DNA of 64,000 nt. Origin: Stegostoma tigrinum. Its lineage: Eukaryota. A program made the position numbers and the translations under genes. The stretch lies in NCBI RefSeq assembly GCF_030684315.1, contig NC_081374.1, positions 13,752,837 to 13,816,836 on the forward strand, in the 5' to 3' direction. This document shows, in pieces, positions 6,898 through 60,245 of this stretch. Each line of letters begins with the position of its first letter. Within the stretch, counting starts at the first letter, position 1. Below the pieces are notes generated by a model. It saw nothing but the letters and a program-made list of their open reading frames with translations. It did not search any database and was not told the DNA's origin.

Positions 6898-7673
6898 GAC
6901 ACTGCATGTGCATCAAGCAAATGGTGATTTTAAAGCACACACACAGTTCCGAGGAAGGGTCACTGGATCCAAAATGTTAACTTTTTTTTCCTTCACAGAT
7001 GCTGCCAGACCTGCTGGGCTTTTCCAACAACTTCTGTTTTTGTTCCTAACTTTCAGAATTTGCAGTTCTTTTGGTTTTTATTTGGTGTTATTAAAGCCTT
7101 CAGAATAGCGAAGGGGGCCTACAGTCAATCTGGAGGTTCAACCAGAGCCAGTGAAGGGGCTTGTCTGACACTTAGTCCTATGCGAGTCCAGAGTTCAGAG
7201 TTCTTGCAGTCTGTGAGCTGGGCCACAATAAGTCCTGAAAGTCGAGTGCAAACTGACTGCAGACAACAGCTAGGTCAGTGGGTTATTGTTGATACATCAG
7301 TCTATGGTCAGTTGGGACTGTCCTGCTAAGTCAGTCCAGTGGGATGGTTTGAAGAATGAGAACGAAAATGAGTTAGTTGTGGGATTTTGGTCAATTATTA
7401 TCTTATGCTTGTCAGGCTTATCATTCCTCTCATGTGGCATCTGAAGTAGTGCATAGCTGGGCTTTAGATATAATGTCAGAGGTGGTGAAACCAGATGGTC
7501 TCGGTAGTAATGAGGACATCCACCTTACGCGTCATGAGAGTCCCTCAGCAATGTGCCCTAACTCTCAATTGCATAGTTAATGAGAAGAAAAGCAGAAGAC
7601 TGCTTGAGTAATTCCCCTAGGCCATGACAGAGCAAATGGGATGAATTTCACTGCCCAACACACTTTAATTGCA

Positions 7674-7848
7674 GAGATAACAAAGCGTGGAGCTGGATGA
7701 ACACAGTAGGCCAAGAAGCATCTTAGGGTCTAGGCCCGAAATGTCAGCTTTTGTGCTCCTAAGATGCTGCTTGGCCTGCTGTGTTCATCCAGCCTCACAC
7801 TTTGTTATCTTGGATTCTCCAGCATCTGCAGTTCCCATTATCTCTGAT
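7674..7848. mobile_element. Short Penelope-derived inverted (hairpin) insertion
   Basis: 15-bp TSD CACACTTTAATTGCA (7659-7673 and 7849-7863); arms match the Penelope terminus at 23640-23760. Confidence 0.85.
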
Positions 7849-8655
7849 CACACTTTAATTGCAAGTAGGCAAATTCCACCCTCTATGTGAGACCTGGAGT
7901 CTCTATTTCAATGAAGGAATGCATCCTGAGTTAAGTTTAGTTTGCGATTATGTTTGGCATGGACTGTTTGGACCGAAGGGTCTGTTTCCATACTGTATGA
8001 CTCTTTGATTCTTTGATTCTATAACATCATCTCCAATCTGGTGGAATCATAAAATTGATCATCTACTCCACAGTTTTGGCTCTATTTTTTTTAACATGTG
8101 AATTTCAAAACTCAGGAGTTGTTCAATATGTTATTTCTTCCTGTTTCTAATGTAACATTTCAATGCTTAAGACAAGAGGCAAAGAAAGGATTGCGTATTA
8201 CGTTTCATTGATTAACTGAGCAAGGTAAAGAGCTCAAGAATTAAGTAATATGGAAATTTGTAGAAAGCACATTATAGTAGTGTCACAAAGCTCAAAATTG
8301 TTGTTGAGTGCTTTAAATAGCTTTAAAAATCTTCGAGATCACTACCTTAAAGCAATAAACATGTTGAAAGCATTTGTACAAAAACCCATCGACATCACCA
8401 GCAGGTTACGAAAACAGTTGATTGTGTAACATTTACCCAGTTGCTTTTCAGCTGCCTTAATGAACCACTGCAGTCCATTTAGTGTAGGAACACACACACT
8501 GCCATTAGGGAGGGAATACCAGGATTTTGACCCATCGACACTGGAGGAATGGCAATATATTTCCAAGTGAAGATAGAGAGTGGCTTGGGAGGAACTTGCA
8601 TGTGGTGGTGTTTCCATATATCTGCTGCCCTCATCCTTCTAAATGGCAGTGGTCA

Positions 8656-9748: not shown

Positions 9749-9990
9749 TCAGAGGTAGTAGGAACTGCAGATGCTGGAGAATCTGAGATAACAAGGTGTA
9801 GAGCTGGATGAACACAGCAGGCCAAACAGTATCAGAGGAGCAGGGAGGCTGACGTTTTGGGCCTAGACCCTTCACAAGAACACTATCAGTGTTCACAAGA
9901 AGGATCTAGGCCCGAAACCCCAGCCTTCCTGCTCCTCTGATACTGCTTGGCCTGCTGTGTTCATCCAGCTCTACACCTTGTTATCTCAGC
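9749..9990. mobile_element. Penelope-derived hairpin insertion
   Basis: ~90-bp inverted arms around a short spacer; degenerate TCAGCAT.TT flanking duplication. Confidence 0.8.
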
Positions 9991-11281: not shown

Positions 11282-21521
<10,240 letters not shown>

Positions 21522-21583: not shown

Positions 21584-21589
21584 TTTATA
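21584..21589 (-). promoter_or_regulatory. TATA box of gene 1
   Basis: TATAAA about 63 nt upstream of the ATG, preceded by the AATGGAA motif shared with the other two paralogs. Confidence 0.75.
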
Positions 21590-21968
21590 CTCACTGTAAT
21601 CAAACCTTTCCATTATCACAAGGACTCAGACACAATTGTTTAAAATAAATATTAATGTTCTCTTGATTAGTTTATCTCAAACTTAATCTGTTTAAGTAAG
21701 GATACTTTTTTTTACTTAAGTGGCATTCAGTTGAGTATATTTGAATTAAAATGAAACATATTCATTGTTGTAACATTAAACATTACCTTTACGGCCAATA
21801 AAGCCATCAGAAATATATTAACAAATCAGACTGATAAGCAGTGTCATGAGACATACAAAATAATTAAGTCACAAATACATCAGAAACTAACTGTTTCACT
21901 GCTGGATAATAAAATGTGAGGCTGGATGAACGCAGCAGGCCCAGCAGCAGCTCAGGAGCACAAAAGCT

Positions 21969-21996
21969 GACGTTTCGGGCCTAGACCCTTCATCAG
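21969..21996 (-). ncRNA. Minimal hammerhead ribozyme core (Penelope type)
   Basis: CUGAUGA-A-GGGU(CUAG)GCCC-GAAA-CG-UC on the minus strand. Confidence 0.65.
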
Positions 21997-23636
21997 AGAG
22001 GGGGATGGGGTGAGGGTTCTGGAATAAATAGGGAGAGAGGCGGAGGCCGACCGAAGATGGAGAGAAAAGAAGATAGGTGAAGAGGAGAGTATAGGTGGGG
22101 AGGTGGGGAGGGGATAGGTCAGTCCAGGGAAGTCGGACAGGTCAAGGAGGTGGGATGAGGTTAGTAGGTAGGAGATGGAGGTGCGGCTTGGGGTGGGAGG
22201 AAGGGATGGGTGAGAGGAAGAACAGGTTAGGGAGGCAGAGACAGGCTGGACTGGTTTTGGGATGCAGTGGGTGGAGGGGAAGAGCTGGGCTGGTTGTGTG
22301 ATGCAGTGGGGGGAGGGGACGAATTGGGCTGGTTTTGGGATGCGGTGGGGGAAGGAGAGATTTTGAAGCTGGTGAAGTCTACATTGATACCATTGGGCTG
22401 CAGGGTTCCCAAGCGGAATATGAGTTGCTGTTCCTGCAACCTTCGGGTGGCATCATTGTGGCACTGCAGGAGGCCCATGATGGACATGTCATCTAAAGCA
22501 TGGGAGGGGGAGTTAAAATGGTTGGCGAATGGGAGGTGCAGTTCTTTGTTGCGAAACGAGCGGAGGTGTTCTGCAAAGCGGTCCCCAAGCCTCCGCTTGG
22601 TTTCCCCAATGTAGAGGAAGCCACACCGGGTACAATGGTTACAGTATACCACATTGGCAGATGTGCAGGTAAGCCTCTGCTTAATATGGAAGGTCATCTT
22701 GGGGCCTGGGATAGGGGTGAGGGAGGAGGTGTGGGCCAAGTGTAGCATTTCCTGCGGTTGCAGGGGAAGGTGCCGGGTGTGGTGGGGTTGGAGGGCAGTG
22801 TGGAGCGAACAAGGGAGTCACGGAGAGAGTGGCCTCTCCGGAAAGCAGACAAGGGTGGGGATGGAAAAATGTCTTGGGTGGTGTGGTCGGATTGTAGATG
22901 GTGGAAGTGTCGGAGGATGATGCGTTGTATCCGGAGGTTGGTGGAGTGGTGTGTGAGAACGAGGGGGATCCTCTTTGGGCGGTTGTGGCGGTGGCGGGGT
23001 GTGAGGGATGTGTTGCCTCTACATTGGGGAAACCAAGCAGAGGCTTGGGGACCGCTTTGCAGAACACCTCCGCTCGGTTCGCAATAAACAACTGCACCTC
23101 CCAGTCGCAAACCATTTCCACTCCCCCTCCCATTCTTTAGATGACATGTCCATCATGGGCCTCCTGCAGTGCCACAATGATGCCACCCGAAGGTTGCAGG
23201 AACAGCAACTCATATTCCGCTTGGGAACCCTGCAGCCCAATGGTATCAATGTGGACTTCACCAGCTTCAAAATCTCCCCTCCCCCCACCGCATCCCAAAA
23301 CCAGCCCAGTTCGTGCCCTCCCCCCACTGCAACACACAACCAGCCCAGCTCTTCCCCTCCACCCACTGCATCCCAAAACCAGTCCAGCCTGTCTCTGCCT
23401 CCCTAACCTGTTCTTCCTCTCACCCATCCCTTCCTCCCACCCCAAGCCGCACCTCCATTTCCTACCTACTAACCTCATCCCACCTCATTGACCTGTCCGT
23501 CTTCCCTGGACTGACCTATCCCCTCCCCACCTCCCCACCTATACTCTCCTCTCCACCTATCTTCTTTTCTCTCCATCTTCAGTCCGCCTCCCCCTCTCTC
23601 CCTATTTATTCCAGAACCCTCACCCCATCCCCCTCT

Positions 23637-23664
23637 CTGATGAAGGGTCTAGGCCCGAAACGTC
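23637..23664 (+). ncRNA. Minimal hammerhead ribozyme core (Penelope type)
   Basis: CTGATGAAGGGTCTAGGCCCGAAACGTC. Confidence 0.65.
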
Positions 23665-24544
23665 AGCTTTTGTGCTCCTGAGATGCTGCTGGGCCTGCTG
23701 TGTTCATCCAGCCTCACATTTTATTATCTTGGATTCTCCAGCATCTGCAGTTCCCATTATCACTGTTTCACTGCTGGATACAGCATTTAACTCTGTAGCT
23801 GCTGCAAAGACTGAAAGATCTCCACTGAATTTCTGCAAACTGCTAAAACTTCAACAACAGTAAGACCAATGATCATTGTCTTAGGAAATTCATATGAAGG
23901 CAAAAAGATGATTTGTGCATCTGAAACATATGAACTTTCAAGGGTAGATGTTCGTTTAGTGACAGATATTTCACTTCGATGATATTCTCTTTTCAAAAGC
24001 CCACATTGAACACTCGAGTCCATTATCCAGGCATACACACAAGTGTAGCATTGATGGAGTGCTGCATTACAAGTGCTATCTTTCAGGTGCCAGATTAAAC
24101 TGTTGAGCTTCTTTCTGCCTGTTAGTGAACGTTTTCAAAGAAGAGCACAAATTCTCCAAGTGTTTGATCCAACGTACACCTCTTCAATCTGTAGTGATTG
24201 TAACGAGATTAGCCAACTGCACTTCGTAGAATATGCGTTCCAATTAGCCCCAGTTAAAGAGCTCTGGCTGACATAAAAAGGTTGAGTGCAGAGATACTGC
24301 CATCCTGATGCCTGACTCAATATGAGGCAGCATTAAAGTCAAGGACTGTTCATGTATAAATGAAGGGTAACTTGGTATGGGGCTAGTGGTCTCTGTGGAG
24401 TTATTGCACAATCAAAACTACTAAATTAAATGAAGTGGTTATTGTCACAGCCATGATAGGATTACGCCAGTAATTCAGCCCCACTATTTCATAAGTTGTA
24501 ATTAATGTATAATTGACCATTTGAATTATGATGATATGGGCTGT

Positions 24545-26310: not shown

Positions 26311-27790
26311 ACCAGAAGACTCCTACAGTCCCATCTCTAGCAATGTTTCTCTCTCAACAGATGCTGCCAGGCTTGCTGAGCTTCTCCAGCACTCTTTGTT
26401 TTAATTCCAGTTGGTCATGTCTAGCTTAGCCAGCAGTACCAACATAAATGTTAGCAGAATGTGGGTCCTCATTTGTGAGGCTGACACAACCAAAGCAGGA
26501 TATTTTGTCTGACCTCTGTCCTATGCATTTTAAAATTAGACTGGCTTTGGGAAGTAAGGAGGTGAGTTAACCCATCGCGGCAATAATTGTCATGTCATCT
26601 TCTGTCACTGAAAATTACCTCATGTCATATATATTCACATATTTTTCCAGTTCACATATTTTTCAGTTTGTGATCTTCCATTCTTACTTACTCACTAACC
26701 GGAGGGAGCAATCATTTATTACACAACTTCTCAAGTCCATTTCAAAATGTTGAACCTTTTAACCTTTCCTTTGTTATTTGTATCTGCAGGATTTTCAGAT
26801 GGTGGAGTTTCCAGCCCCACCACAGAGAATGAGAGAGTGGGAACAAAACATCCACACCAATCACAGCAGCCCCTCCCTGGTAACCCCCTTGTGGAGCCTC
26901 CAGTGGCCAGAGACACACACCTCTGCTGCTCACTCAGAAATTGGTCGATTGATCGGCAGATTCCCAGCAGTGCCACCTGGAGCAGTGACTGTTGTACGAA
27001 CTACAAGTATGCCCACCAGCCTGAGCGCTAGAGCCCACTCGACGAAGTTAGTCCTGGGATCTCTGAGTGAATACAGAATGGGATCCTCCTTAAAAGTGGG
27101 TCGGGGTGGGCCGGTATGCGATGGGAAAGTCATCAGGGAATTTAAAAAGCTGAGCAACCAAACATGCACTACATCCAGCCCAGCAAACTTACTGGTTGGA
27201 TCCTGTAAAATGCTGCAAAATACCTTTTCATCCTCGATGTTATTGCACTGGTTTGAAATTATATCTTAGCAAGGTCTTCAAATACTTCTTCATAACGATA
27301 TTGTCAAAATTTTATTTCAACTATTGTCTAACTAACATTCTAAATTGTCATTCCTTGACTTTGCATTCAATACCTCCATATTTATAACACTCATAACCAT
27401 ATCTCACCCCATTACAGCATTTCAACTTGTGAAACAAAAACAGAAATTACTGGGAAAACTCAGAATGGTCTGCACAAGGATCGCTGTGCCTGAAACATTA
27501 ACTCTGCTTTCCCTATAGTGATACTGCTGGACATGCTGAGTTTTCCCAGGATTTTCTGATTTTTATTTTGATTTCAAGCATCCAAAGTTCTTTGATTCTT
27601 TTGATTTCCACTTGTGAGCTTGGTTTTGAAAATCTGGCTATCTGAAAACCTTCACTTTCTCTACTCCACTGAGAATTCACAATTAAGATTGTATCTCGTC
27701 TTTTTTTTCTCAGATTGTAATATTTTGCATTTATCGACATATCCCTTGTTTGTCAATGATGTGATCTCTAACCCACAATGATCATTAAGA

Positions 27791-27984
27791 ACAGAGATAA
27801 TGGGAACTGCAGATGCTAGAGAATCCAAGATAACAAAGCGTGAAGCTGGATGAACACAACAGGCCAAGCAGCATCTCAGGAGCACAAAAGCTGACATTTT
27901 GGGCCTAGACCCTCCATAAGGATCTAGGCCCGAAACATCAGCTTTTGTGCTCCTGAGATGCTGCTTGGCCTGCTGTGTTCATCC
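27791..27984. mobile_element. Penelope-derived hairpin insertion
   Basis: 13-bp TSD ATGATCATTAAGA (27778-27790 and 27985-27997); inverted arms. Confidence 0.87.
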
Positions 27985-28759
27985 ATGATCATTAAGATAT
28001 TTGGTTCTCAACTCCTGTCTCTTATGGTTTACCTGGCCCCTTTGTTTAGAATCATCAGTAAATTTTGATCACCTTCCTACACTAACTCAATCAAAGTCCA
28101 CCACATTAATTTATTTAAATAATTGAATTAAACCAATTAAGACTTTTGGAAATGCCAGGCACATTGGTAATATTCCTACCTCTGGGCCAAAAGGTAGATC
28201 CCACCCTGGAGATGTGTCATTAGTAGGTCCAGCTTCAATCTTACCTGTCCCAGATACGTATTACAATAAGTTGATTAAAAATATCTTAAAGCTAAACAAT
28301 TAATTACTTTAAACTGTGATTAATAGTTTCAAGTATATTCAGCCAACTGAGAATGCCTGATCAAAAACATATTTACTAAGTGCGGACGTTCAATTAATGA
28401 ATGCTTTGTTCGGTCCTCAAATAATAATCATTAATAAATACACCTTATTGACTCTCTATTTGATAAACTGCATGAACATGAGGCATGATCTTTATCATTA
28501 GCAAAGTTTTATAATGCTTTAATGTTTGTGAAACCAGCGAATTAAGACAACAATGGAGACAAATCTCGTTCTGGCAATAATGGTATTAACACTGTTATTT
28601 TTCTTATTTCTAGTTAATTTTCAATCATCAAATGAAAGAAGTTTACATGGCACGTTAGTTATATAGTATTTTCAATGTTCTTAGTACATCACAACATGTT
28701 TCACAGCCATTCATGTCCTTTTGAAATGTTTTGACTGTTGACATATAGCCACAGGCAAG

Positions 28760-53601: not shown

Positions 53602-54250
53602 ACAAATAACAACTGCACCTCACAGTCGCGAATCATTTTAACTCCCCCTCCCATTCCTCAGATGACATGTCCATCATGGGCCTCCTGCAGTGCCACAATG
53701 ATACCACCCGAAGGTTGCAAGAACAGCAACTCATATTCCGCTTGGGAACCCTGCACCTCAATGGTATCAATGTGGACTTCACCAGCTTCAAAATCTCTCC
53801 TTCCCCCACCGCATCCCAAAACCAGCCCAGTTTGTCCCCTCCCTCCACTGCATCACACAACCAGCCCAGCTCATCCCCTCCCCCCACTGCATCCCAAAAC
53901 CAGTCCAGCCTGTCTCTGCCTCCCTAACCTGTTCTTCCTCTCACCCATCCCTTCCTCCCACCTTAAGCTGACCTCCATTTCCTACCTACTAACCTCATCC
54001 CACCTCCTTGACCTGTCCGTCTTCCCTGGACTGACCTATCCCCTCCCTACCTCCCCACCTATACTCTCCTCTCCACCTATCTTCTTTTCTCTCCATCTTC
54101 GGTCTGCATCCCCCTCTCTCCCTATTTATTCCAGTTCCCTCACCCCATCCCCCTCTCTGATGAAGGGTCTAGGCCCGAAACGTCAGCTTTTGTGCTCCTG
54201 AGATGCTGCTTGGCCTGCTGTGTTCATTCAGCTTCACACTTCGTTATCAA
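53602..54250 (+). mobile_element. Penelope-like 3' fragment with hammerhead core at 54157-54184
   Basis: Near-identical to 23084-23728 (MSIMGLLQCHND.TRRLQEQQLIFRLGTL..NGINVDF). Confidence 0.9.
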
Positions 54251-55879
54251 GGTTTCTGACATACTCCTTTAAGGCATAGTTATAGTTTGTCTACATAGGC
54301 GATTGCCTTTTGTGAGACGTCAGGCTCAACCTGGAAATAAACACACATTACTAAGTTACATGGACTTAGCACGAGAACAACTCAAACTAAATGCACGAGA
54401 CAGACATCGAAGCACTTGTCATCTCTTCCCAAGAACAGCCTTTTATATCTTGATGGTTGGAGCTTATCTATGATGTCACTTAACCCTTTCAGGTATTAAC
54501 TGCACTATGCAACAATAATGATTACAATCAGAATGATATTCTGCAATGGTTTCACTGCAGGCTGGCAATTTTAGGGAGAACACTGCATGATCGAATAGGA
54601 TGCATTAGCTTGCTGCCAATGGATTCACATTCAGCTTGAGATGTGTCGAAGATTTCTTTCGGTACTCTATTCCTCGCCACCGTTGTTGTTCATCACTTCA
54701 ATCACCGCTTGTCATGCTCTGTCTGGCACATTCTGTAGCACATTCCTTCCATCATAAGCTATAACATCTGAAACAGAAACAGAAATTGCTGGTGAAGCTC
54801 AGCAAGTCTGGCATTCTATTCTGTTCTGATGAAAAACCAAAAGGTAAACTTTGCTTTCTTCTGACAAATGCTGCCAGACCTGTTGAGTTTCACCAGCAAT
54901 TTCTGTTTTTGTTTCAGATATTCAGTCTCCAACATTCTTTGTTTTATTGAAGCCAATAATGTGGCTTCTATTTCCTGCAGAAGCTGCTGAATCACCTCAC
55001 AACAACTGCAATATATCCTCCTGCTTGAAACCTTAATGACTTACTGAGGGCCTGTTTAATTCAGCCCTTACATTTGGGCAAGCTGCCAGGTATAAACATT
55101 AGTAAAATAAATTTTAAAAAGCACTGTTTCTTCGTGCTCTTCTTATCGTGATATGTTACCTTTTACATTGAGACTTGACTATTTATAAACATGAAGACGT
55201 TATGAAGTTAGAAGTTTTCTAAGTTTAGAATTTAGAAATATTAGAAGTGGATGCAAAGCTTTGAAAATGGATATCTCATGACCTTGGCAAATTCAGCTTG
55301 AGGCAGACCTGAAACTCAAGTCAATTCTGAGTTAAATACTGGCATTCATAGGCACATGGGAATGAACACATTTCCTTGCTTAAGGATGGATTATCAACAA
55401 TATAAATATAGCATTCTGATCGTCTCATCTTTCTGCTTCCTGTGGACAACAGACACACAAAACTATTCTGTATCAGGTGAATATGAAAAAATAGCAATCA
55501 GCTTTGTTGGGTGTTTTTAGAAAAATAATAGCAAAAGCTGCCCTGACAGAGAAACATCGTGACCAATACCTTCAGAAAAATCATCTATAAGTAATATTAA
55601 ATCAGCTGCTAGACAGTTATGCAGTGAAAGTAAAACAGCTATACCTTGAAAGTGGGAGGGTTCAGGCACTAACTTGTTCTGATTTCAAGTTCACCTGGGA
55701 AGTGATGTCCTGGCAATTCCATTGCATGAAGTTTCACAACTTACCGAAACGTTTCTGCTTTTGCACATACCTAAAGAATCAATGCATCGAAGGAGCTACA
55801 GGTCTGTTCAGAAAGAAACTGTAATAATTTCACATTATAATTATATTATCCTTCTGTTCACCTGTATTTAGTATTTTTG

Positions 55880-60027: not shown

Positions 60028-60245
60028 GATAGTAGGAACTGCAGATAACTGGAGAATCTGAGATCGCAAGGTATGGAGCTGGGTGAGCACAGCAGGCCAA
60101 GCAACATCAGACGAACAGGAAGCCTGACGATTTGGGCCTAGACCTTTCTTCAGAAAAGCTGCGATGAAGAAGGGTCTAGGCCCGAAACGTCAGCCTTCCT
60201 GCTCCTCTGATGCTGCTTGGCCTGCTGTGTTCACTCAGCTCCACA
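60028..60245. mobile_element. Penelope-derived hairpin insertion
   Basis: Inverted arms with degenerate hammerhead cores on both strands; imperfect 15-bp flanking duplication CCCTGCCATTCCTGG/CCCTGCTATCCCTGG. Confidence 0.82.

What the first reader, a model, noticed from the sequence alone, without database searches (positions are those of the whole stretch)
21890..23780. A 1.85-kb Penelope palindrome with a hammerhead core on both strands, about 320 bp upstream of the gene 1 TATA box
Seen: arms 21905-22617 and 23016-23728 (~713 bp each, scattered mismatches) are reverse complements around a 398-bp spacer. A 19-bp TSD shows a single insertion event. Each arm carries the GIY-YIG C-terminus and the motif CUGAUGA-A-GGGU(CUAG)GCCC-GAAA-CG-UC (21969-21996 on -, 23637-23664 on +). 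Known: Penelope-like elements encode minimal hammerhead ribozymes with a palindromic helix III (here ACGU) thought to act as dimers. Inference: transcription in either direction would give a long dsRNA hairpin with a potential self-cleavage site. The insertion also displaces upstream regulatory DNA of gene 1 and could affect its expression. Helix I pairing is only about 2 bp, so activity is unproven.
Basis: partly seen in the sequence, partly recalled or inferred. Interest (0 to 1): 0.7.

Follow-up and report, generated by a model that had tools for sequence, protein, structure and literature searches.

The report
Ordinary head-to-head Penelope retrotransposon insertion
This 1.85-kb hairpin-shaped insert beside a pepsinogen-like gene is the usual insertion form of a very common Penelope-type jumping gene and its own ribozyme motif is likely blocked here, but across the genome about 3% of the family's copies start exactly at the predicted ribozyme cut, which likely records self-cleavage in germ cells.

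Summary
In detail: 713-nt arms (24 mismatches), a 19-bp target duplication, and a hammerhead core in each arm, 320 bp from the TATA box of a pepsinogen-like gene. It is two 5'-truncated copies of an endonuclease-bearing Penelope-like element joined head to head. The 'spacer' is more element, and only one arm carries the 33-nt tail. This layout is published for Penelope elements and is this family's norm: 58 of 58 duplication-flanked pairs had one tailed and one tailless arm, with roughly 150,000 pairs extrapolated genome-wide. Self-cleavage at this locus is unlikely, because a read-through RNA pairs the core with its perfect antisense copy. The strongly conserved proximal promoter is untouched. 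The family is more interesting than the locus. Copies whose halves meet at the predicted cut number 727, against 39 and 24 at control palindromes. One-sided 5' ends peak there too (463; neighbouring positions 61-235). This likely records cleavage in vivo, which the papers read call unresolved; polymerase stalling at a hairpin is the rival. The scan noted this before, in this genome (e1-8622537, e1-9964995) and others.

The parts
21890..21908 (.). left copy of the 19-bp target-site duplication; its last 4 nt also match the element (microhomology)
21909..23015 (-). copy A: 1107-bp 5'-truncated Penelope-like element without the tail
22618..23015 (-). the 'spacer': part of copy A with no partner; RT-endonuclease linker, CX4CX2C motif region (frame broken in this copy), first half of GIY-YIG
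22371..22688 (-). GIY-YIG endonuclease domain in copy A (Pfam GIY-YIG E 0.017, below the curated cut-off); 92-94% identical to 149 other listed genomic copies
21969..21996 (-). minimal type I hammerhead core of copy A; predicted cut between 21969 and 21968
23016..23761 (+). copy B: 746-bp 5'-truncated copy, starts inside GIY-YIG and ends with the tail
23637..23664 (+). minimal type I hammerhead core of copy B; predicted cut between 23664 and 23665
23729..23761 (+). 33-nt tail, present on this arm only; equals the first bases of the next unit of the element (full-length copy L051, tandem junctions L083 and L075)
23762..23780 (.). right copy of the target-site duplication; its first 4 nt match the element's continuation after the tail in L083
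21584..21589 (-). TATA box of gene 1, conserved in three paralogues
21466..21521 (-). first coding exon of gene 1, a pepsinogen-like A1 aspartic protease (A1 propeptide E 1.6e-10 and Asp E 8e-16 in later exons), one of at least nine such genes within 264 kb

Best explanation
This is a dead, 5'-truncated insertion of an endonuclease-bearing Penelope-like retrotransposon, two copies joined head to head inside one target duplication, likely made when both strands of one staggered cut primed reverse transcription on element RNA, one at the tailless start site and one 33 nt further on at the end of the tail. The two cDNAs (1107 and 746 nt) likely stopped early and were joined at their inner ends. 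Both arms run through an intact hammerhead core, so both were copied from RNA that was uncut at that site. At this locus the ribozyme is predicted to be inert and the insertion is probably neutral for gene 1. At family level, a minority (about 3%) of arms begin at the predicted cut, likely because part of the template RNA had self-cleaved. Shown: the anatomy, the tail rule, duplication lengths and the positions of 5' ends. Inferred: two-strand priming, the joining step, cleavage in vivo and neutrality.
For: Anatomy. Family rule: 86 head-to-head pairs called, 58 with a duplication (control 3 of 300); 58 of 58 had one tailed and one tailless arm; duplication mode 14 bp, 48 of 58 at 13-16 bp; 80 of 147 ends in 864 kb of unselected DNA were paired. 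Primer-template microhomology averages 1.5 nt (52 tailless ends) and 1.8 nt (54 tailed ends) against 0.4-0.5 in controls; it is 4+4 nt at this locus. Partner arms agree at 444 of 510 subfamily-marker cells (87%) against 55% for non-partners; here 21 of 23. Biochemistry in print: an anole Penelope protein cuts and extends both strands and starts at two sites that delimit the tail (PMC11167929). Layout in print: PMC8557442, PMC3846280. Blocked core. Promoter conservation. Cut-site ends.
Against: The 19-bp duplication is at the long end (2 of 58). The arms differ at 24 of 713 sites, two of them family markers, and share no rare allele, so two related RNAs or later conversion cannot be excluded. 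Microhomology is absent at 18 of 52 and 13 of 54 ends, and calling the longest duplication inflates it somewhat. 67 of 147 unselected ends were not paired by my caller. The anole study found priming at non-homologous sites and that cleavage was not needed in vitro. Clade placement rests on a motif, not a tree. No RNA data were available.
Confidence: 0.88

Rival explanations
1. Family-level rival to in vivo cleavage: the pile of 5' ends near the cut site comes from reverse transcriptase stalling at the foot of the inactive hairpin (core positions 1-6 paired with 25-30), plus easy joining at the self-complementary AGCT. The ribozyme need never cut.
For: The monomer folds into that hairpin with frequency 0.81. 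An AGCT-centred junction is the same sequence as a blunt join of two ends at position 31. Position 34 (232) and position 30 (235) are also well above positions 24 and 28. In the listing of asymmetric junctions few start cleanly at the cut. Earlier notes on other genomes prefer this reading.
Against: One-sided ends, which need no palindrome, peak at position 29 (463), not at the hairpin foot (position 31: 126), and drop 5-fold one base upstream (position 28: 87). 24 of 30 inspected position-29 hits were clean ends, several of them solo inserts with their own duplication. Two control 4-base palindromes give 39 and 24 against 727.
Confidence: 0.35
2. One reading: this locus is transcribed into a self-cleaving hairpin RNA, or otherwise tunes the neighbouring pepsinogen-like gene (silencing by double-stranded RNA, or an outward promoter in arm A pointing at the gene).
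For: The insert is 320 bp from the TATA box. Weak promoter homology to paralogues runs up to and about 40 bp past the insertion point. Many short copies begin at about the start of the hammerhead, which may mark a transcription start, and Drosophila Penelope has an internal promoter (PMC2377424 abstract).
Against: The core is fully paired to its antisense copy in both transcription directions. The highly conserved 200 bp of promoter is intact and none of the three close paralogues needs such an insert. About 170 element ends per Mb make an insertion near a promoter unremarkable.
Confidence: 0.08
3. The palindrome arose by fold-back (self-primed) copying of one cDNA or antisense template, as proposed for rotifer Penelope elements, rather than by priming on both target strands.
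For: PMC3846280 interprets palindromic inverted junctions as self-priming. Partner arms usually share subfamily markers.
Against: Fold-back should give equal outer ends, yet 58 of 58 pairs end at two different fixed sites. The centre here is not palindromic and has no microhomology. Both outer junctions show primer-type microhomology.
Confidence: 0.1
4. Assembly artefact.
For: No contig from four public runs was shown bridging the central junction; the tool warns that such a hole proves nothing.
Against: The arms differ at 24 sites, there is an exact duplication, and the tail sits on one side as the family rule demands. Contigs from all four runs (2 samples) match the left flank and 18-20 nt of the element without a difference, short of the 31 nt the tool asks for formal bridging.
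Confidence: 0.03

Closest known systems
Endonuclease-bearing Penelope-like element insertions with an inverted 5'-truncated copy and one-sided 30-40-bp tail (Craig et al. 2021, PMC8557442; Adineta Pen2a, PMC3846280)
   Same: Head-to-head inverted copy, tail at one end only, target duplication, C-terminal GIY-YIG, hammerhead in the terminal repeat.
   Different: Duplications are longer here (mode 14 bp, against 8-10 bp in the Adineta examples read). The one-tail rule holds in 58 of 58 cases and the copy number is very high.
Neptune/Nematis-type PLEs (CX2-5CxxC motif before GIY-YIG; PMC8557442)
   Same: CX4CX2C lies directly upstream of GIY-YIG in five long-ORF copies.
   Different: No tree was built, so Neptune versus Nematis is not decided.
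Poseidon element of Anolis carolinensis (PAc; Frangieh et al. 2024, PMC11167929)
   Same: Two reverse-transcription start sites delimiting the tail; both DNA strands cut and extended; hammerhead upstream of the start sites.
   Different: Different clade. PAc primes at non-homologous sites, whereas short microhomology is enriched here. That study found no RNA-seq reads beginning or ending at the cut, whereas genomic 5' ends pile up at it here.
Minimal type I hammerheads of metazoan PLEs (Cervera and de la Pena 2014, PMC4209133)
   Same: Conserved core, extra base after A9, G10.1-C11.1 pair, palindromic positions 15.2-16.2; pairs of motifs on opposite strands 100-700 bp apart were already noted.
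   Different: Helix I is only 2 bp (as in D. virilis; typical is 4-5) and helix II 4-5 bp; activity untested for this family.
Non-LTR retrozymes derived from PLEs (bioRxiv 10.64898/2026.07.22.740005)
   Same: Short tandem hammerhead-bearing derivatives of this same family exist in the genome (L075, L083).
   Different: The focal insert is inverted, not tandem, and carries coding sequence.

Membership tests
Endonuclease-bearing Penelope-like element | single ORF with RT and C-terminal GIY-YIG | tested here: met
   Copy L051 has a 976-aa open stretch with RVT_1 (E 2.5e-5) then GIY-YIG (E 0.0045), both below curated cut-offs; the focal arms are about 94% identical to it
Endonuclease-bearing Penelope-like element | direct or inverted pseudo-LTR arrangement with 5' truncation | tested here: met
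Endonuclease-bearing Penelope-like element | 30-40-bp tail at one end | tested here: met
   33 nt on arm B only; 58 of 58 pairs
Endonuclease-bearing Penelope-like element | target-site duplication | tested here: met
   19 bp exact; family mode 14
Neptune/Nematis clades | CX2-5CxxC motif upstream of GIY-YIG | tested here: met
   CX4CX2C in L051-L055; frame broken at this spot in arm A
Neptune clade | RT phylogeny | not tested
   no reference RT set was fetched
Minimal type I hammerhead ribozyme | conserved core CUGANGA / GAAA / UH with helix II | tested here: met
   column counts over 211 copies show the core positions near-invariant apart from CpG decay and the free N7 (copies were selected for matching this region, so this is not a test of selection)
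Minimal type I hammerhead ribozyme | palindromic helix III allowing a dimer | tested here: met
   ACGU at core positions 24-27
Minimal type I hammerhead ribozyme | stable helix I and a favoured active fold | tested here: not met
   helix I is 2 bp; active-like fold -3.6 vs inactive fold -11.4 kcal/mol; the free dimer prediction is also not the active form
Minimal type I hammerhead ribozyme | self-cleavage | not testable with these tools
   indirect only: excess of genomic 5' ends at the predicted bond
Rfam hammerhead families | covariance-model match | tested here: not met
   no hammerhead hit at E <= 10

The most novel reading that the evidence does not exclude
The genome holds a fossil record of Penelope hammerhead activity in germ cells: thousands of copies were reverse-transcribed from RNA cut exactly at the ribozyme's scissile bond, and when a cDNA ran off that end its self-complementary AGCT joined the partner cDNA, giving at least 727 palindromes centred on the cut. 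Together with the strict one-tail rule this lets both the ribozyme's in vivo role and two-strand priming be read from sequence alone.
Probability: 0.55. Interest if true: 0.65.

Novelty: new member of a known kind. Interest (0 to 1): 0.42.

Why it matters
The locus itself matters little: it is one of an estimated 150,000 such hairpins. The family matters as a large natural data set for two open points. One is how the tail and inverted copy of Penelope insertions arise; the strict one-tail rule and microhomology fit priming on both strands. The other is whether minimal Penelope hammerheads cut in living cells, which a 2020 review calls 'still a mystery' (PMC7761336) and which the 2024 anole study could not see in RNA-seq. 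The peak of 5' ends gives an exact bond to test.

Tried and rejected
Rfam scan: no hammerhead model matched. DNA similarity search of the own genome returned nothing because common words are skipped; uninformative. Idea that the two arms come from two unrelated source elements brought together by a ribozyme dimer: not supported, since partners are closer than random copies (median 2.4% vs 3.9%, 29 of 32 long pairs, 3 dropped as too short) and share markers (six loci dropped: three short, three old or highly diverged). Search for a paralogous empty site: the three close paralogues lack the insert but are too diverged there to give the pre-insertion sequence. Expression: no RNA holder listed, so no evidence either way. 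Central junction in public contigs: no bridging piece shown, inconclusive because contig building drops such links. Asymmetric-junction listing (100 of 4160 rows): no sharp peak at the cut, and several apparent starts at position 26 are internal deletions between two GTC repeats. The large pile of apparent 5' ends at position 0 is partly an alignment edge for older subfamilies and was not used as evidence. Two papers were not held (Lunse 2017, Arkhipova 2017). Symmetric junction counts for older subfamilies and for the CTAG and upstream GGCC palindromes were not obtained genome-wide; the listing shows about 3 CTAG-centred or near and 1 GGCC-centred junction, and about 4 centred on helix II, against 23 AGCT-centred in the same 73 Mb of contig C1 (patterns of unequal stringency).

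Full report
1. Observation. The arms differ by 24 substitutions. Hammerhead-type cores start at 23637 (+) and 21996 (-). TATAAA at 21589 on the minus strand is 320 bp from the element edge. Gene 1 is a pepsinogen-like A1 aspartic protease, one of at least nine related genes in 264 kb.

2. Anatomy. The insert (21909-23761, 1853 bp) is two truncated copies with their 3' ends pointing outward. Copy A (minus, 1107 bp) includes the 'spacer', which encodes the linker, a CX4CX2C region and the first half of GIY-YIG. Copy B (plus, 746 bp) starts inside GIY-YIG and ends with 33 nt that A lacks. A full-length genomic copy (L051) begins with most of this tail and ends at the tailless site, and real tandem junctions (L083, L075) show the tail is the start of the next unit. 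Its long ORF has RT then GIY-YIG (weak scores, below cut-off). Both outer junctions of the focal insert share 4 nt with the element RNA.

3. How common. A protein search gave 221,599 first-look candidates, of which 150 were scored. Four further small inverted inserts lie in the same window. In 864 kb of unselected DNA plus 40 loci picked for the endonuclease I called 86 head-to-head pairs. 58 had a target duplication (random control 3 of 300), and all 58 had one tailed and one tailless arm; duplication lengths were 9-19 bp, mode 14. In unselected DNA 80 of 147 ends were paired, which extrapolates to about 540,000 ends and 150,000 pairs (an extrapolation from 0.03% of the genome). The focal insert is therefore typical, apart from a long duplication.

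4. Mechanism. Microhomology between target end and template averages 1.5 nt (52 of 58 tailless ends scored) and 1.8 nt (54 of 58 tailed ends) against 0.4-0.5 in two controls, but is zero in about a quarter to a third of cases, and the longest-repeat rule inflates it somewhat. Partner arms agree at 87% of subfamily-marker cells against 55% for non-partners (26 pairs; focal 21 of 23) and are closer than random copies, 2.4% vs 3.9% (29 pairs). This fits one event from one source family, or later conversion between arms. In vitro, an anole Penelope protein cuts and extends both strands and starts at two sites bounding the tail (PMC11167929). I infer that each target strand primed at one of the two sites and that the cDNAs were joined at their inner ends.

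5. The ribozyme at this locus. Both arms read through the core, so their templates were uncut there. The isolated motif prefers a fold in which core positions 1-6 pair with 25-30 (-11.4 kcal/mol, frequency 0.81; active-like fold -3.6). In a read-through RNA from either side the antisense arm comes first, and all 30 core positions pair with it. Self-cleavage from this locus is unlikely.

6. The gene. Identity of the joined empty site to three paralogous promoters is 0.88-0.96 in the first 100 bp, 0.70-0.80 in the next 100, 0.42-0.66 up to the insertion and 0.14-0.48 beyond. The insert lies at the outer edge of weak homology. No RNA run was listed, so an expression effect is untested.

7. Family 5' ends and the cut site. 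Numbering from the C of CUGAUGA, the predicted cut is between 28 and 29. Exact genome-wide counts of symmetric junctions are 727 centred on AGCT (29-32), 39 on ACGT (24-27; that pattern holds a CpG) and 24 on a downstream GGCC. Fifteen AGCT cases inspected span several subfamilies with different outer ends and duplications, so they are recurrent events. One-sided ends were counted with three upstream positions restricted to exclude intact copies (about 1 in 8 junctions pass): position 24, 61; 28, 87; 29, 463; 30, 235; 31, 126; 34, 232. By eye, 24 of 30 position-29 hits were clean ends (2 intact, 2 internal deletions, 2 doubtful); false hits were 3, 2, 2, 2 and 0 of 20 for positions 24, 28, 30, 31 and 34. 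The filters differ in letters, so these counts are comparable only roughly. In 1.7 Mb of local sequence 11 of 312 unflagged arms (323 scored) began at 29 against a mean of 1.1 at neighbouring positions; these are about 7 independent events plus one false call, so the printed P value is overstated. The peak is at the bond predicted beforehand, but a polymerase stall at the hairpin foot (positions 30-31) is close by and positions 30 and 34 are also raised. I put in vivo cleavage at about 0.55.

8. What is known. The inverted copy with one-sided tail is described in PMC8557442 (passages seen) and PMC3846280 (passages). Minimal hammerheads in PLEs, including pairs on opposite strands 100-700 bp apart and low in vitro activity, are in PMC4209133 (parts 1-2 of 4: results and discussion). 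PMC11167929 (parts 1-2 of 4) reports protein-assisted cleavage, no need for it in vitro and no RNA-seq ends at the cut. PMC7761336 (passages) calls the in vivo role a mystery. I saw part 1 of 5 and passages of bioRxiv 10.64898/2026.07.22.740005 and the abstract of PMC2377424. Lunse 2017 was seen as a title only. Five searches showed no paper reporting genomic PLE copies that start at the hammerhead cut; subscription papers are not covered and supplements (notably Fig. S2 of PMC11167929) were not opened. Earlier notes of this scan, consulted after my analysis, reached the same reading in this genome and mixed readings in others; they are not independent support.

9. Verdict. The feature is real and ordinary: a new member of a known kind. 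Interest 0.42, carried by the family-level record of 5' ends rather than by this locus.

Noticed in passing
window 7673-7863, 9761-9986, 27778-27997, 60028-60245: Four small head-to-head inserts of the same superfamily whose arms meet in or near the hammerhead; two have clear duplications (15 and 13 bp).
   Followed up: yes
window 53608-54257: Solo, tailless 650-bp copy of the same family, about 94% identical to the focal arms.
   Followed up: partly
G000:C25 13.67-13.90 Mb (window and 100 kb each side): Cluster of at least nine pepsinogen-like genes in both orientations, four with about 83-87% identical 5' regions; parts of the region are duplicated in inverted orientation.
   Followed up: partly
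L075:7700-8500, L083:4200-5200, L131:500-1300: Short tandem, non-coding derivatives joining the element's first 130-175 nt to its hammerhead-bearing end (units of about 315-430 bp): retrozyme-like, and themselves inserted head to head.
   Followed up: no
L051:1887-5583: Full-length copy with the tail at its 5' end instead of its 3' end, flanked by a 14-bp duplication; its ORF has a Thr/Pro/Ala-rich repeat before the RT.
   Followed up: partly
L195, L177, L180, L189 (centre of each locus): Solo inserts running from the predicted ribozyme cut to the end of the tail, with apparent short flanking duplications.
   Followed up: partly
listing, contig C1: Several junctions lack the whole helix II hairpin through a deletion between two GTC repeats.
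   Followed up: no
window 20013-20390: G-rich, purine-skewed low-complexity repeat array inside gene 1.
   Followed up: no
family alignment: Subfamily marker haplotypes look mosaic along the element, suggesting template switching or conversion between copies.
   Followed up: no
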